NCBI GenBank assembly: GCA_964016885.1
Contig: OZ024765.1
Span: forward strand, 6,634,001 to 6,698,000
Source: Eledone cirrhosa
Lineage: Eukaryota
DNA length: 64,000 nucleotides
Direction: 5' to 3'
Translations under genes and position numbers: made by a program
The notes under the pieces: model-generated
Database searches by the model: none
Told to the model about the DNA's origin: nothing
What the model saw: only the letters and a program-made list of their open reading frames with translations
Shown: positions 14,340 through 58,860 of the stretch, one piece after another
Position numbering within the stretch: position 1 is the first letter of the stretch
Layout: every line of letters begins with the position of its first letter

Positions 14340-15145
14340 TAGAAGGTGGCGAATTATATAATGAAATTATTGTGTAAAGTGCTCAGGTGCACTACAACTC
14401 GTCAAAGGTGCATGTATAGTACATAGAATAATATACAAATGTCAGGGAAGTGAATAGTGTATGCGTCATGATATATACACGTGTGCATGTGTATGGAGGG
14501 GGGAATATCAGGTGTAGTGTTGGCGAATCTCGGGAAGCATGGAGGTTTTAAAGGATGCAGTCTCTCGGCAGCTAACAACTGATACAGGTAGTTTGTTCCA
14601 TGGAGGTTTTAAAGGATGCAGTGTCTCGACAGCTAACAACTGATGCAGGTAGTTTGTTCCATGGAGGTTTTAAAGGATGCAGTGTCTCGACAGCTAACAA
14701 CTGATGCAGGTAGTTTGTTCCATGGAGGTTTTAAAGGATGCAGTGTCTCGGCAGCTAACAACTGATGCAGGTAGTTTGTTCCATGGAGGTTTTAAAGGAT
14801 GCAGTGTCTCGACAGCTAACAACTGATGCAGGTAGTTTGTTCCATGGAGGTTTTAAAGGATGCAGTGTCTCGACAGCTAACAACTGATGCAGGTAGTTTG
14901 TTCCATGGAGGTTTTAAAGGATGCAGTGTCTCGACAGCTAACAACTGATGCAGGTAGTTTGTTCCATGCTTCAGCAACTCTGAGCGTGAAAATATGTTTT
15001 TGAAGGTCATGGGAGCTGTGTTGTTTTCTGACTTTGTTGGCATGTCCACGTGTGTTAGACACATGGAAATCAAAAAGGTACTCAGGGTTGTTGTTGGCAA
15101 GATGGTTAATAATTTTGTGGGCCTTTACCAAGTCAGTTGCCAGGT
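14340..15145 (-). mobile_element. CR1/L2-type LINE 3' end with internal 61-nt tandem expansion (7 units, 14538-14964)
   Basis: NTRGH..K......IFTLRVAEAWNKLPASVV....FK motif. Confidence 0.8.
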
Positions 15146-35026: not shown

Positions 35027-35800
35027 GTGAGTTATGACACGCATGGTTCTTTCTTCAACACTAAACTGTTTGTGTTTATCTAAAACCTTTCCATAACAAA
35101 TTCACGGAAGAAGATTTAACCCTTTAGCATTTACATTACTTTATATATACCATTATATTTTCACAGTAAAGGCTTTACCTCACATAGCATTTACATTACT
35201 TTATATATACCATTATATTTTCACAGTAAAAGCTTTACCTCACATAATATCGTATTTATGAGATTTTGATATTATATATTTTGAGAACAAAACCTTAACA
35301 TAAGTATGAGTGGCCAGTTACTGCCAGTTTGAACAGAAAGAGGTGAGGGAGTTCATCTTTCAAGAAGAAAGATGAACAAACCTGCCTCAACACTTAATTT
35401 TAAATCTTTAATTCTTTTTAATTGTAATACTCAACATTTGATAAGGTGGATTTCACTGATACATTATAAAACTTTTTTTTTTAAAGAGTTGTTCCTCTCA
35501 TTTTTTCAATAATGTCACTTGGACAAATCAAAGAAGAAAAAAACAGACCCTTCAATATATTTTCCGTGCTATTTCCAATTCCACATTTTCTCTATAATCA
35601 CTGTTTTGTATAGAACCTTACTCCCTTTTCAAATATATATATATATATATATGAGAGAGAGTGTGTGTGTGTATATATGTATATGTGTAAATATAGTGTA
35701 TATATAAATGTATATATATATATATAGAAAGAGAGAGAGTGTGTATCTATATATATATATGTATCTAAATGTGATGCCTTTGTTATGTTTTACTCTGCAG

Positions 35801-39756: not shown

Positions 39757-40484
39757 GTATCCTTTCATTTACACACTACCAAGGTGTGGCCTAGTGGTCG
39801 AGGTGTTGGATTTACAATCATAATGTTATGGCTTCGATTCCTGGACTGGGTTCTGTGTTGTGTTCTTGAGCAAAACACTTCATTTCATGTTGCTCCAGTG
39901 GTAAGTGTGTTGGACTTACAATCATATTCCTGGACTGGGTTCTGTGTTGTGTTCTTGAGCAAAACACTTCATTTCATGTTGCTCCAGTGGTAAGTGTGTT
40001 GGACTTACAATCATATTCCTGGACTGGGTTCTGTGTTGTGTTCTTGAGCAAAACACTTCATTTCATGTTGCTCCAGTATACTCAGCTGAAAATGAGTACC
40101 AGCAATAGCTGGAGTGTTTAACCCTGCAATGACTGGCACCCTGTCTAAGGGAGGGTCTTGTACTCTCAGTCCCTTCGTGCCTCAGAAACTGGAATAAGTA
40201 CCAGCCTCATGAACCTTCTGGCTTGCGACAGACTTTAAACCTGAGAGAGGGGAGGTGCAAGTGTGCAAGTTCAACTTTTATCACCTCGTCCTTTCTGGGT
40301 CTTCCTACTCTGTAGCTTCTATCAATTTTTATCACCTTGTACCTTTTTATTACAGCTGTCGTCCTTCATACACATCACATGACCATACCAATACAGTCTC
40401 CTCTCTAGTATGTTGAAATATGTTATGTAATATTTTAGTTCTGTTTGCTACCAACTCGATCCTTCCTTAACAAATGTTGTCCAG
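39757..40484 (+). other. U12-type GT-AG intron (XPO4 intron 6)
   Basis: 5'ss GTATCCTTT; branch TTCCTTAAC 40463-40471 close to the AG, no long pyrimidine tract. Confidence 0.93.
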
Positions 40485-43668: not shown

Positions 43669-44272
43669 GCAAGTACTTTCATACATTCGCGGCCCCAGTT
43701 ATTCATGGAATTTTCCTTAGACACCTAACTAATAATTGTTCATCGAAACCTTACACGTTTTTTCGTGGCAATATAAATATTTTTTAACACTAAATTATTA
43801 ATAATAATATACCATATTTGCTTGTCTATTGGTTGCCGATTCGCATAAGATGTTCCCTTTTTTTTTATGGCCTTTTTCATGCGTTTTAATGCTAAATTAT
43901 GGCAGTATTGGTAGAGTGTCGGATGCCATGCTTTGGCGCATAGAGTTACGGCCCTTGCCATTCTGAGTTCAAATCCCGCCGAGGTTAACTTTGCCTTTCA
44001 TCCTGACGGGGTCGATAAAATAAAGTACCAGTAATACACTGGGTAATTGCTGGCCTTGTGCCTAACGTGGAAACAATTATTAATAACAATATACTGTAAT
44101 TGCCAGCCTATATTTTGACGTTTATCAGGCATTTTTATGGACCATGTCAAATATTCACGGTTTTTCACTCTAAATGGGTGCTCTAGCAATGTAACCCCTG
44201 TGAATACCGGGTGACCCCTGTATTGCTATCTGTTGTTATTATCATGTAAGAAATGCTATATTTTGTCTATAG

Positions 44273-45694: not shown

Positions 45695-45859
45695 GTAACT
45701 TGGTTCATTCCTAAATCTTCTATTTTTCTAATACCTTACCTTAGAAGGAGCTAGAATAAGAACATATGGAGAGGTTTGTCATGGGGGAAGATGGCTTTAA
45801 AATCAACTGAAATTAGAGGTTGTATTGGTTGATGTTTATTGCTGGTAAGTTGTCTAAAG

Positions 45860-53119: not shown

Positions 53120-53236
53120 GTCGGAAAATTGCTGGACTCAACAATGAAGAGGAAGAGAAATACTACGACATTGTCTTACTGATGGAGATGTTGACACATC
53201 TATTGTCTAAGGACTTTATTGACTTCAGTGGTCCTG
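53120..53236 (+). CDS. XPO4: XPO4 exon 20 (RKIAGLNNEEEEKYYDIVLLMEMLTHLLSKDFIDFSGP)
   Basis: cttcag / G|GTAAGT; ME.LT.LLSK.FIDFS motif. Confidence 0.95.
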
Positions 53237-53990
53237 GTAAGTTGATTGTTGTTATTGTTGTTGTTGTGGTGGTGGTGGTGACTTCAGTGGTCCTGGTAAG
53301 TTGATTGTTGTTATTGTTGTTGTTGTGGTGGTGGTGGTGACTTCAGTGGTCCTGGTAAGTTGATTGTTGTGGTGGTGGTGCTGTTGTTGTTGAGGTAGCG
53401 GTGATGATGGTGTTGACGTTAGTAGTAGTGGTCCTAGTAAGTTGATTGTTGTGGTGGTGGTGCTGTTGTTGTTGAGGTAGTGGTGATGATGGTGTTGACG
53501 TTAGTAGTAGTGGTCCTAGTAAGTTGATTGTTGTGGTGGTGGTGCTGTTGTTGTTGAGGTAGCGGTGATGATGGTGTTGACGTTAGTAGTAGTGGTCCTA
53601 GTAAGTTGATTGTTGTGGTGGTGGTGCTGTTGTTGTTGAGGTAGCGGTGATGATGGTGTTGACGTTAGTAGTAGTGGTCCTAGTAAGTTGATTGTTGTGG
53701 TGGTGGTGCTGTTGTTGTTGAGGTAGCGGTGATGATGGTGTTGACGTTAGTAGTAGTGGTCCTAGTAAGTTGATTGTTGTGGTGGTGCTGTTGTTGTTGA
53801 GGTAGCGGTGATGATGGTGTTGACGTTAGTAGTAGTGGTCCTAGTAAGTTGATTGTTGTGGTGGTGGTGCTGTTGTTGTTGAGGTAGTGGTGATGATGGT
53901 GTTGACGTTAGTAGTAGTGGTCCTAGTAAGTTGATTGTTGTGGTGGTGGTGCTGTTGTTGTTGAGGTAGTGGTGATGATGGTGTTGACGT
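53221..53990 (+). repeat. Donor-site-containing tandem repeat (59-nt then ~82-nt units)
   Basis: gtggtcct(g/a)GTAAGTtgattgttg repeated. Confidence 0.9.
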
Positions 53991-54171
53991 TAGTTGTGGT
54001 AGTAGTGGTGTTGGTCATATTGATGGTATTGTTGGTGATGATGGTGTTGATGTTAGTTGTGGTGGTGGTCATATTGATGGTATTGTTGGTGGTGCTGTTG
54101 TTGAGGTAGTCTTGATGTTTGTGGTGGTAGTTATGGTGTTATTGGTGGTGGTGGTGGTAGTAATGGCAGAG

Positions 54172-55090
54172 CAACTTTGGTAGACATTACTGTCAGCAAC
54201 TGCTGTCTCACCCCCTCCACATGTTATTGTGTATCTGGCACCACCTACACCAAGGCAACTTTGGTAGACATTACTGTCAGCAACTGCTGTCTCACCCCCT
54301 CCACATGTTATTGTGTATCTGGCACCACCTATACCAAGGTAACTTTGGTACACATTACTGTCAGCAACTCCTGTCTCGCCCCCTCCACATGTTATTGTGT
54401 ATCTGGCACCACCTATACCAAGGCTACTTTGGTAGACATTACTGTCAGCAACTCCTGTCTCACCCCCTCCACATGTTATTGTGTATCTGGCACCACCTAC
54501 ACCAAGGCAACTTTGGTACACATTACTGTCAGCAACTCCTGTCTCACCCCCTCCACATGTTATTGTGTATCTGGCACCACCTATACCAAGGCTACTTTGG
54601 TAGACATTACTGTCAGCAACTCCTGTCTCACCCCCTCCACATGTTATTGTGTATCTGGCACCACCTACACCAAGGCAACTTTGGTACACATTACTGTCAG
54701 CAACTCCTGTCACACCTCCTCCACATGTTATTGTGTATCTGGCACCACCTATACCAAGGCTACTTTGGTAGACATTACTGTCAGCAACTCCTGTCTCACC
54801 CCCTCCACATGTTATTGTGTATCTGGCACCACCTACACCAAGGCAACTTTGGTACACATTACTGTCAGCAACTCCTGTCTCACGCCCTCCACATGTTATT
54901 GTGTATCTGGCACCACCTATACCAAGGCTACTTTGGTAGACATTACTGTCAGCAACTCCTGTCTCACCCCCTCCACATGTTATTGAGTATCTGGCACCAC
55001 CTATACCAAGGCAACTTTGGTACACATTACTGTCAGCAACTCCTGTCTCACGCCCTCCACATGTTATTGTGTATCTGGCACCACCTATAC
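54172..55090. repeat. 84-nt minisatellite, ~11 copies
   Basis: ctttggtagacattactgtcagcaactcc..ccaccta units. Confidence 0.92.
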
Positions 55091-56846: not shown

Positions 56847-56922
56847 AAATATGGTTTTATAAATATAGTTTCCATTTATTAATATCTTGGTATATATATA
56901 TTTATGTATTTTCTCTCTCCAG

Positions 56923-57026
56923 AGCCAGAAACCTCCTCACCACCCCCATCACAGATATCAGCCGCAGAAGTTGTCCTCTTTGGGTTAAACATAATCATTC
57001 CACTTATGAATTCTGAGCTGCTTAAG
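56923..57026 (+). CDS. XPO4: XPO4 exon 21 (PETSSPPPSQISAAEVVLFGLNIIIPLMNSELLK)
   Basis: ctccag / AAG|GTTGGT; SAA.VVL.G.N.I.PLM...LLK. Confidence 0.93.
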
Positions 57027-57183
57027 GTTGGTCTACCTCTCTTCCTCCTCTCTCTCTATCATCAACAACACTTACAATGTTAACACTTATAACACTTACA
57101 ATGATGACACTGATGACAACACTTACAGTTTCTCAATCTATGTAGCCAGTAAGTACTTCTCTAACCCCATTGACCTAGCATGG

Positions 57184-58184
57184 CCTCAGCTGACTTCTGA
57201 CCTCTCTCTCTTCCAGTTCCCCAATCTATGCAGCCAGTACTTGACATGACCTGACATGACCTCAGCTAACCTCTGACCTCTCTCTCTATTGCAGTTTCCC
57301 AATCTATGCAGCCAGTACTTGACATGACCTGACATGACCTCAGCTAACCTCTGACCTCTCTCTCTATTGCAGTTCCCCAATCTATGCAGCCAGTACTTGA
57401 CATGACCTCAGCTAACCTCTGACCTCTCTCTCTATTGCAGTTCCCCAATCTATGCAGCCAGTACTTGACATGACCTGACATGACCACAGCTAACCTCTGA
57501 CCTCTCTCTCTATTGCAGTTCCCCAATCTATGCAGCCAGTACTTGACATGACCTGACATGACCTCAGCTAACCTCTGACCTCTCTCTCTATTGCAGTTTC
57601 CCAATCTATGCAGCCAGTACTTGACATGACCTGACCTCAGCTAACCTCTGACCTCTCTCTCTTCCAGTTCCCCAATCTATGCAGCCAGTACTTGACATGA
57701 CCTCAGCTAACCTCTGACCTCTCTCTCTATTGCAGTTCCCCAATCTATGCAGCCAGTACTTGACATGACCTGACATGACCTCAGCTAACCTCTGACCTCT
57801 CTCTCTATTGCAGTTTCCCAATCTATGCAGCCAGTACTTGACATGACCTGACATGACCTCAGCTAACCTCTGACCTCTCTCTCTATTGCAGTTCCCCAAT
57901 CTATGCAGCCAGTACTTGACATGACCTCAGCTAACCTCTGACCTCTCTCTCTATTGCAGTTCCCCAATCTATGCAGCCAGTACTTGACATGACCTCAGCT
58001 AACCTCTGACCTCTCTCTCTATTGCAGTTTCCCAATCTATGCAGCCAGTACTTGACATGACCTCAGCTAACCTCTGACCTCTCTCTCTATTGCAGTTTCC
58101 CAATCTATGCAGCCAGTACTTGACATGACCTCAGCTAACCTCTGACCTCTCTCTATTGCAGTTCCCCAATCTATGCAGCCAGTA
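57184..58184 (+). repeat. Acceptor-site-containing tandem repeat (14 units of ~66-78 nt)
   Basis: cagctaacctctgacctctctctctattgcAG|ttccccaatctatgcagccagta. Confidence 0.93.
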
Positions 58185-58292
58185 TTTCAAGTTAATCACC
58201 TTCCTAGCAGAATGTCATCCCCAGAAGTTCTGCCTTCTTCCAGCAGATTTGTTTAAAGCTTTCATGGATTCTGTACAGGTCGGACTTAACAC
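58162..58292 (+). CDS. XPO4: XPO4 exon 22 (FPNLCSQYFKLITFLAECHPQK..QVGLNT)
   Basis: Last unit of the acceptor array; FP.LC.QY.KLITF..E..P.K; ends at U12 donor GTATCCTTT. Confidence 0.93.
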
Positions 58293-58860
58293 GTATCCTT
58301 TACACAGTAGTGTGTAGTAGTGCTGTGGTCTCGTGGTGGTGTGTACTAGTGTTATGTGGTGTACAGGTGAGACTTAACCCTTTAGCATTTAAACTGGCCA
58401 TGTCTGGCCAGAATTCTCTTACCTCTTTCTGTTCAAACCAGCAACTCATACTAATGTTAAGGTATTGTTCTCAAAATAAATAACATCAAAATCTCAGATT
58501 CGATATGTGTGTGAGATAAAGCCTTTAATGTGAAAATACAATTGTAAATATAGAGTAATGTAAATGATATTGGGTTAACACATCCTTTACAGAACATTGT
58601 GTAGTGTGATAATGTGGTGGTGTAGTGTATAGGTGGGACTTAACACGTATCCTTTACAAAGCAGTGTGTGGTGTAATATTGTATGGTGGTGTGGTGTGAT
58701 ACTGCAGTGTGGTATGGTGGTTTAATTGGTGTGGTATGGTGGTTTAATTGGTGTGGTGTGGTGTGGTATGGTATGTTGGTGGAGAAGAAGAAACAATCGC
58801 TCCCGAATATTGCTGTTATTCCCCCGTTCTTTCTTCTTCGTCCTTAACCCTAAACCCCAG
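58293..58860 (+). other. U12-type GT-AG intron (XPO4 intron 22)
   Basis: 5'ss GTATCCTTT; branch TCCTTAAC 58841-58848, AG 58859-58860. Confidence 0.93.
58378..58574. mobile_element. TTAA-flanked piggyBac-type MITE
   Basis: TTAA|CCCTTTAGCATT...GGG|TTAA; other copies 16836-17068, 27284-27478, 35117-35350, 40722-41261, 41861-42438, 47383-47882, 49019-49939. Confidence 0.75.

What the first reader, a model, noticed from the sequence alone, without database searches (positions are those of the whole stretch)
57184..58184. Thirteen decoy 3' splice sites stacked in front of XPO4 exon 22
Seen: a unit made of branch-like CTAAC + pyrimidine tract + CAG + the first ~23 nt of exon 22 is repeated 14 times (AGs at 57216, 57294, 57372, 57440, 57518, 57596, 57667, 57735, 57813, 57891, 57959, 58027, 58095, real 58161). 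Every decoy reads in frame FPNLCSQYLT-stop, and only the last continues into the exon. Each spacer also begins GTACTT and ends CAG, so it looks like a ~46-58 nt mini-intron. Inference: correct splicing must rely on exon definition with the downstream U12 donor. Array length could tune productive vs NMD-targeted or C-truncated XPO4, which would make it a VNTR splicing rheostat or an intron-gain intermediate.
Basis: partly seen in the sequence, partly recalled or inferred. Interest (0 to 1): 0.8.

Follow-up and report, generated by a model that had tools for sequence, protein, structure and literature searches.

The report
Tolerated splice-acceptor repeat in octopus XPO4
An intron of the nuclear-transport gene XPO4, likely from an octopus, holds 13 extra head-to-tail copies of the next exon's splice signal and first 23 bases, but the one RNA assembly examined joins only to the last, genuine copy, so this is likely a harmless repeat of a kind already described in lancelets ("mirages").

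Summary
Fourteen acceptor units end at the stated AGs. Each of the 13 decoys reads FPNLCSQYLT-stop, and a 15th, degenerate copy lies at 57128. The gene is XPO4, with 25 exons and an intact 1146-aa frame, 1091 residues identical to Octopus vulgaris. DNA contigs show the array far deeper than its flanks, so it is unlikely to be an assembly artefact. The single RNA run assembles one 3559-nt transcript contig, spliced 57026→58162 and 58292→58861. The rheostat reading has no support here, though low-depth contigs cannot exclude minor, NMD-hidden decoy use. The mini-intron idea fails: the spacer donor CCA|GTACTT lacks both -1G and +5G, unlike 22 of 22 U2 donors in the gene. Three other XPO4 junctions are also duplicated, including the U12 donor. 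Junction duplication (3 of 48 by script) is within the intronic background of 2-11%. This is an amphioxus-type "mirage" (PMC3087553). The scan has already noted the same kind of array on other DNA (5 notes). I found no cephalopod report. Verdict: new member of a known kind, low interest.

The parts
56923..57026 (+). XPO4 coding exon 21; donor AAG|GTTGGT, phase 0
   Evidence: tblastn with O. vulgaris XPO4; match to mouse Xpo4 5DLQ 910-934; in RNA contig X4 record 25
57027..58161 (+). Intron 21 (1135 nt, U2-type GT-AG), about 85% of it made of the array
   Evidence: skipped whole in X4 record 25
57110..57160 (+). Diverged edge copy (AG at 57127-57128): no pyrimidine tract, in-frame stop, followed by GTAAGT
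57179..58184 (+). Mirage array: 13 decoy units (branch-like CTAAC/CTGAC, CT tract, CAG, first 23 nt of exon 22, stop) plus the real acceptor; 66-78 nt units with a 78+78+68 higher-order pattern
   Evidence: DNA depth raised over flanks
58162..58292 (+). XPO4 coding exon 22 (131 nt), the only acceptor used in the RNA contig
   Evidence: match to 5DLQ 935-972; X4 record 25, 0 differences
58293..58860 (+). U12-type intron 22: donor GTATCCTT at 58293, branch TCCTTAAC at 58841, AG at 58860
   Evidence: removed in X4 record 25
58352..58600 (+). Second, decayed copy of the exon 22 end and U12 donor: split by a high-copy TTAA-flanked element (about 58374-58578) and missing the GT
   Evidence: alignment; positions; very high contig depth over 58330-58625. 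MITE label is my reading, from no library
58624..58670 (+). Third copy of the exon 22 end with an intact U12 donor (GTATCCTT at 58647), not used in the RNA contig
53220..53994 (+). Donor mirage behind exon 20: 9 extra copies of the exon end plus GTAAGT (2 with CCTG|, 7 with CCTA|), periods 59 and 82
45822..45855 (+). Single diverged copy of the exon 12 end and donor, 150 nt downstream; the copy (CTG|GTAAGT) fits U1 better than the real site (CTG|GTAACT)

Best explanation
This is a minisatellite inside XPO4 intron 21 whose unit straddles the intron 21/exon 22 junction (a 'mirage'); the one transcript assembled uses only the last acceptor, likely because only that copy is followed by a full 131-nt exon ending in a strong U12 donor, and the array is likely neutral. 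Steps: (1) Shown: a 66-78 nt piece (intron tail plus 23 exon bases) is present in 13 extra tandem copies with diverged 5' edge units. (2) Inferred: it arose by the same local tandem amplification that is common in this genome, then grew in multi-unit steps (78+78+68 blocks), probably by slippage or unequal crossing-over. (3) Shown: the decoys' core signals match the real site (0-6 differences over -20..+23, mostly a 2-nt CT-tract register shift), so site choice cannot come from the acceptor itself. (4) Inferred: U11/U12 on the donor at 58293 and enhancers in the 108 exon bases that the decoys lack recruit U2AF across the exon. Decoys would define exons of 197-1076 nt, or 20-nt micro-exons with a very weak donor. 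(5) Inferred: rare decoy use gives a stop at codon 978 of 1146, three junctions from the end, which NMD would likely remove, so selection against the array is weak.
For: RNA: X4 record 25 (3559 nt, depth 9.19, 0 differences) joins 57026→58162 and 58292→58861. It accounts for all depth in the exon 22 and exon 23 bins. Reality of the array: array bins reach about 10-22 times flank depth in 3 of 3 DNA runs, all one sample (the tool warns this is not a copy number), and units vary in an ordered pattern. Generic origin: 36 complex tandem arrays in 200 kb of neighbouring DNA; with a looser filter 55 of 93 are seeded on dispersed repeats. Junction duplication of 3 of 48 lies within a copy-weighted intronic background of 1.9-10.8%. 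Decay without apparent constraint: a copy of the U12 donor lost its GT and took an insertion. At exons 12, 20 and 22 the frame-preserving site is always the copy attached to the full exon. Class: mirages in amphioxus globin, Adh3, troponin C and PGBD5 are reported not to disturb splicing (PMC3087553; PMC3902484). With the CBS 68-bp intron 7/exon 8 duplication the downstream copy is strongly favoured (PMC2630376). Cross-exon U11/U12-U2AF contact is described in PMC8329584. The decoys are not hidden by folding (z = +2.88). Decoy unit purine content is 0.36 with no GAA, against 0.42 with 2 GAA in the rest of exon 22 (weak).
Against: The RNA evidence is one run at depth 9, as contigs, which drop rare variants, with no NMD block. 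That run also holds one 106-nt array piece at depth 7.16. Collapsed over 13 units this is about 6% of the mRNA level, or about 11% if it all came from decoy use spread evenly; it could be far more if only the nearest decoy were used (rough arithmetic). One X4 bin at the end of exon 21 has about 3 depth units that record 25 does not explain (6.5 against 3.35). Some human junction VNTRs do use pseudo-sites (6-16, CBS intron 13; PMC1557585). Four duplicated junctions in one gene, against 0 clear cases in 31 TBL3/DUS1L exon matches and 1 in 30 myosin exons, may be more than chance: P = 0.015 for at least 4 of 48 at the lowest background of 2%, and 0.068 once the ascertained junction is left out. 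Exon definition was not tested.
Confidence: 0.8

Rival explanations
1. Splicing rheostat: a sizeable share of transcripts uses decoy acceptors and is destroyed by NMD or makes XPO4 cut at residue 977, and array length or minor-spliceosome activity sets that share.
For: Decoys carry the same core signals and a stop at codon 978. An array piece is present in RNA. Human junction VNTRs in 6-16 and CBS use pseudo-sites, and tandem-repeat length is tied to splicing genome-wide in humans (PMC10078293). U11-dependent activation of an upstream 3' site regulates SNRNP48 and RNPC3.
Against: Only the productive junction was assembled. No copy-number variation was shown. No sign of conservation: edge copies and donor copies are decaying. 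Mirages are reported as silent. Duplication rate at junctions is within background.
Confidence: 0.1
2. Intron-gain intermediate: spacers are removed as 46-58 nt introns, leaving 20-nt micro-exons; multiples of three keep the frame and would add 20 residues.
For: Each spacer runs GT...CAG with a branch-like motif and CT tract. Three micro-exons in a row read open. PMC3087553 proposes intron gain from mirages.
Against: CCA|GTACTT lacks -1G and +5G; 0 of 22 U2-type donors of the gene lack both. The shortest real intron is 119 nt. One, two or all 13 micro-exons shift the frame. The RNA contig has no micro-exon. The Octopus, Argonauta and bivalve XPO4 proteins seen have no insertion here.
Confidence: 0.03
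3. Assembly artefact: one or two units were expanded by the assembler.
For: No contig spans the array, and the DNA runs may be the assembled sample. Exact copy number is not confirmed.
Against: Array bins are about 10-22 times deeper than flanks in 3 of 3 DNA runs. A contig runs without a difference from exon 21 into the first units (56920-57243). Units fall into distinct, ordered variants.
Confidence: 0.03
4. Junction-biased amplification: something about exon boundaries, or this locus, seeds tandem duplication more often than ordinary intron DNA; the array is still silent.
For: 4 of 48 XPO4 junctions are duplicated, 3 of them within 5.5 kb. A myosin donor is also duplicated. The scan has five similar notes in other genomes (unchecked).
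Against: Background local duplication in introns is 1.9-10.8% copy-weighted. There were no clear cases in 31 TBL3 and DUS1L exon matches. The window was picked because of the array.
Confidence: 0.15

Closest known systems
Amphioxus 'mirages' (BflGb6, BflGb9, Adh3, troponin C, PGBD5; PMC3087553, PMC3902484; term from Canestro et al. 2002, not held)
   Same: Minisatellite-like tandem copies of an intron end plus exon start (as in BflGb6). Donor-side versions also occur, edge units are less homogenised, and normal splicing is kept.
   Different: A cephalopod mollusc rather than a lancelet; 13 copies against 3-6 in BflGb6. The exon is closed by a U12 donor that is itself duplicated. Length instability was not shown here.
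Human CBS c.844_845ins68 (PMC2630376; Romano et al. 2002 seen only as a reference entry)
   Same: A 68-nt duplication of an intron/exon junction that duplicates the 3' splice site; the downstream copy, joined to the full exon, is strongly favoured.
   Different: One extra copy, a polymorphism; here 13 copies in a homogenised array.
Human junction-spanning VNTRs: F7 intron 7, CBS intron 13, 6-16, lamin B2, PDGF (PMC1557585)
   Same: Splice site repeated in each unit; mostly the site next to the intact exon is used. Direct counterpart of the exon 20 donor array here.
   Different: Those repeat donors; this repeats an acceptor. In 6-16 and CBS nearby pseudo-sites are used, which was not seen here.
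U11-binding splicing enhancer (USSE) in SNRNP48 and RNPC3 (PMC8329584)
   Same: U11/U12 on a minor-type donor activates an upstream U2-type 3' site across an exon, the contact inferred to pick the real acceptor here.
   Different: USSE is a conserved tandem donor with no U12 intron behind it and makes unproductive mRNA on purpose; here the donor opens a real U12 intron and no regulation is shown.

Membership tests
Mirage (intron/exon boundary minisatellite) | Head-to-tail tandem array of minisatellite-size units | tested here: met
   13.8 copies, period 66-78, 91% matches
Mirage (intron/exon boundary minisatellite) | Unit spans a real intron/exon boundary and repeats the splice signal | tested here: met
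   Boundary fixed by protein match and RNA contig; unit = intron tail + 23 exon nt
Mirage (intron/exon boundary minisatellite) | Regular splicing to the authentic site is kept | tested here: met
   One RNA run, one contig at depth 9.19 uses 58162; minor use not excluded
Mirage (intron/exon boundary minisatellite) | Inner units homogenised, edge units diverged | tested here: met
   Units at 57128 and 57216 diverge; inner units nearly identical
Mirage (intron/exon boundary minisatellite) | Length instability between haplotypes or cells | not testable with these tools
   Only contigs of collapsed repeats; no spanning reads
Splicing-regulating VNTR | Pseudo-sites are used in transcripts | tested here: inconclusive
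   No decoy junction assembled; a 106-nt array piece in RNA at depth 7.16 is unexplained
Splicing-regulating VNTR | Copy number varies and tracks isoform level | not testable with these tools
   Two samples, one study, no paired genotype
Intron gain by tandem genomic duplication | The duplicated segment supplies a usable donor and acceptor so that a new intron is removed | tested here: not met
   Donor lacks -1G and +5G (0 of 22 real U2 donors lack both); spacer under half the shortest intron; no micro-exon in RNA
U12-type intron (intron 22) | Donor GTATCCTT and branch TCCTTAAC near the AG | tested here: met
   58293 and 58841; intron 6 has the same pair. Consensus recalled from general knowledge
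Exportin-4 | Full-length orthologous protein | tested here: met
   1146 aa, one terminal stop, 1091 of 1146 identical to O. vulgaris exportin-4-like; 5DLQ match

The most novel reading that the evidence does not exclude
The real acceptor wins only while U11/U12 occupies the slow minor-class donor of exon 22. When minor-spliceosome activity drops, splicing falls back on the 13 upstream copies and XPO4 mRNA goes to NMD. Array length would then be a heritable dial that couples XPO4 dose to minor-spliceosome activity: a repeat-built, USSE-like sensor.
Probability: 0.06. Interest if true: 0.6.

Novelty: new member of a known kind. Interest (0 to 1): 0.16.

Why it matters
As it stands it matters little: one more mirage, which extends the class to a cephalopod (no such report in searches, or in the passage checked). 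It has some value as a natural test bed. Fourteen near-identical acceptors compete in front of an exon closed by a U12 donor, which is itself copied, so a minigene could measure directly how much major-minor cross-exon definition contributes to 3' site choice. If decoy use proved large and length-dependent, it would be a repeat-encoded expression dial on a nuclear export receptor.

Tried and rejected
RNA structure hiding the decoys: rejected; 57960-58300 folds worse than 99 of 100 shuffles. Mini-intron ladder: rejected. Dispersed transposon as the unit: the own-genome search found only this locus (that search skips very common words). Enrichment of arrays at junctions: one search used a strict complexity filter that dropped the GT-rich exon 20 arrays (1 of 5 in-gene arrays at a junction, 0.42 expected), so I replaced it. 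One search missed the exon 12 copy seen. Its window background includes the arrays themselves, and its downstream background was not exon-masked. Genome-wide frequency: 30 of 72 myosin matches (the top 30, some overlapping), 20 TBL3 rows (one an off-strand fragment) and 11 DUS1L rows were tested around match ends, not exact junctions. Single k-mer hits (TBL3 +294, L032, XPO4 exon 6) were not followed up. Run search: no RNA holder listed; X4 turned out to be RNA only by its spliced contig. That only organism A holds the stretch is no evidence of species specificity. Holes in DNA cover over exon 22 prove nothing. The 2-nt gap in X4 record 26 and the 22-nt gap in the DNA contigs may be graph paths through repeats, so I did not count them as polymorphism. 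Orthologous introns in other octopuses could not be fetched (no relatives held). Cluster members showed no truncated isoform at this junction. The original mirage paper and the CBS mechanism paper are not held, so those rest on citing papers. Literature searches added no closer acceptor-array case. No supplements were read.

Full report
Observation. A script found acceptor Gs at all 14 stated positions and one more, diverged, at 57128. Units are 66-78 nt. All 13 of 13 decoys read FPNLCSQYLT-stop in the exon frame; only the unit ending at 58161 continues. All 13 spacers start GTACTT, end CAG and are 46-58 nt, and CTAAC lies within 35 nt upstream in 13 of 14 units. TRF gives 13.8 copies and higher periods of 146 and 224 (78+78+68), which points to growth in multi-unit steps (inference). 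The two 5' units are the diverged ones. A DNA search of the own genome (3.0 Gb) matched only this locus.

The gene. The flanking exons match mouse Exportin-4 (5DLQ) residues 910-934 and 935-972, with no gap between them. A homologue search returned 5 proteins, led by Octopus bimaculoides and O. vulgaris exportin-4. tblastn and hand-set boundaries give 25 coding exons at 23649-61570. They form a 1146-aa frame with one terminal stop, 1091 of 1146 residues identical to O. vulgaris. The organism is therefore likely an octopus, though the protein is not identical to the O. vulgaris or O. bimaculoides entries. Intron 21 is phase 0. Introns 6 and 22 carry the U12 donor and branch motifs (consensus recalled).

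Is it real, and which site is used? Four runs from one study hold the stretch, and all four were laid. X1-X3 behave as DNA of one sample. In X1 and X2 a contig runs from exon 21 into the first units without a difference (56920-57243). Peak array bins are about 10-22 times flank depth in 3 of 3. The tool warns that this is no copy number, and the sample may be the assembled one, but it argues against an assembler expansion. X4 is RNA by its content: record 25 (3559 nt, depth 9.19, no differences) joins exon 21 to 58162 and exon 22 to exon 23. It explains the depth of every exon 22 and exon 23 bin checked. Against a fully clean picture: X4 also holds one 106-nt array piece at depth 7.16. Spread over 13 collapsed units this is about 6% of the mRNA level, or about 11% if it all came from evenly spread decoy use; if only one decoy contributed it could be much more. 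One bin at the end of exon 21 has 6.5 against 3.35 expected, possibly a low-complexity match. Contigs drop rare forms and NMD was active, so minor decoy use is open.

Why the last AG? The decoys differ from the real site by 0-6 letters over -20..+23, mostly a 2-nt register shift in the CT tract, and have branch-like motifs at similar distances. Folding does not hide them (z = +2.88). What only the last copy has is the other 108 exon bases and a consensus U12 donor 131 nt away; decoys would define exons of 197-1076 nt. Cross-exon contact between U11/U12 and upstream U2AF is described in PMC8329584 (passages). Exon definition is therefore the likely cause, but it is inferred, not tested. Decoy use would put a stop at codon 978 of 1146, upstream of three junctions, and would likely trigger NMD (general knowledge; not checked for molluscs).

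The mini-intron idea. The spacer donor CCA|GTACTT lacks both -1G and +5G; 0 of 22 U2-type donors in this gene lack both. The shortest real intron is 119 nt. Micro-exons of 20 nt shift the frame unless they come in threes, and 13 lead to a stop. No micro-exon is in the RNA contig. I reject it.

Three more junctions of the gene are duplicated. Exon 20's end and donor have 9 extra copies in 53220-53994. Exon 22's end and U12 donor have two: one split by a high-copy TTAA-flanked element and missing its GT, one intact at 58647. Exon 12's end has one copy 150 nt downstream with a better U1 match than the real site. In each case the frame-preserving site is the copy attached to the full exon; RNA confirms this only for exon 22. 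This region amplifies local sequence freely: 36 complex arrays in 200 kb of neighbours, and 55 of 93 under a looser filter are seeded on dispersed repeats. A 24-mer test found local copies at 3 of 48 XPO4 junctions, against a copy-weighted intronic background of 1.9-10.8%. Elsewhere there was no clear case in 20 TBL3 and 11 DUS1L exon matches, and 1 of 30 myosin exons had a short donor copy (strand and junction read by eye). No enrichment is shown. At the lowest background a mild local excess is not excluded (P = 0.015, or 0.068 without the ascertained junction).

What is known. The lead to the class came from earlier notes of this scan (five similar arrays, which the notes place in worms and sea urchins; unchecked). 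I then read the passages myself. [quoted passage not shown] They include an intron end plus exon start in BflGb6, show diverged edge units, are reported not to interfere with splicing, and are proposed as a route to intron gain. PMC3902484 (one passage) adds troponin C and PGBD5. PMC1557585 (abstract, outline and passages) lists human donor-spanning minisatellites; pseudo-sites are silent in F7, lamin B2 and PDGF, and partly used in 6-16 and CBS. PMC2630376 (passages) describes the CBS 68-bp intron 7/exon 8 duplication, where the downstream copy is strongly favoured. PMC10078293 (passages) shows that repeat length can tune splicing in humans. Canestro 2002 and Romano 2002 were seen only as reference entries. 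Searches found no cephalopod mirage; the one 'mirage' hit in an O. vulgaris repeat paper is a transposon name (PMC13282606, passages). The library lacks most subscription journals.

Verdict. A real, well-formed mirage: four of five class features met, one untestable here. New member of a known kind; interest 0.16. The only unusual touch is that the exon is bounded by a minor-class donor that is itself copied, which makes it a handy splicing test case.

Noticed in passing
window 53220-53994: Ten tandem exon 20 ends with GTAAGT (1 real, 9 copies): a donor-side mirage like human F7 intron 7. Which donor is used was not covered by the laid RNA.
   Followed up: partly
window 58352-58670: Two copies of the exon 22 end with the U12 donor; one interrupted by a TTAA-flanked high-copy element and lacking GT, one intact. 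A duplicated minor-class donor.
   Followed up: partly
window 45822-45855: Copy of the exon 12 end whose donor (GTAAGT) is stronger than the real one (GTAACT), the only U2-type donor in the gene without +5G.
   Followed up: partly
window 39757-40484 and 43669-44272: Intron 6 is also U12-type (GT-AG); intron 10 is GC-AG.
   Followed up: no
L014 1385-1525 (G000:C5): A myosin exon on the minus strand has a 23-nt copy of its donor region 110 nt into the intron.
   Followed up: partly
window 14538-14968 and L041 3454-3759: The same 61-nt unit, apparently from a dispersed repeat, is amplified in tandem at two separate places, in opposite orientation; likewise several 48-nt arrays from one repeat family.
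   Followed up: no
L037-L044, L052: Neighbouring genes on C26: TBL3 and DUS1L (mapped with Octopus proteins), an aromatic amino acid hydroxylase and a TLC-domain gene (Pfam), and a weak proteasome-subunit hit.
   Followed up: partly
L035-L044 joined, about 35078-35176 (in L038): A lone copy of one TBL3 exon on the opposite strand, about 17 kb from the original.
   Followed up: no
L036 3823-5592: 590-codon open frame with a repetitive motif and no Pfam match.
   Followed up: no
window 54171-55090: 84-nt x 11 array in intron 20, next to the donor array, with no exon sequence seen.
   Followed up: no
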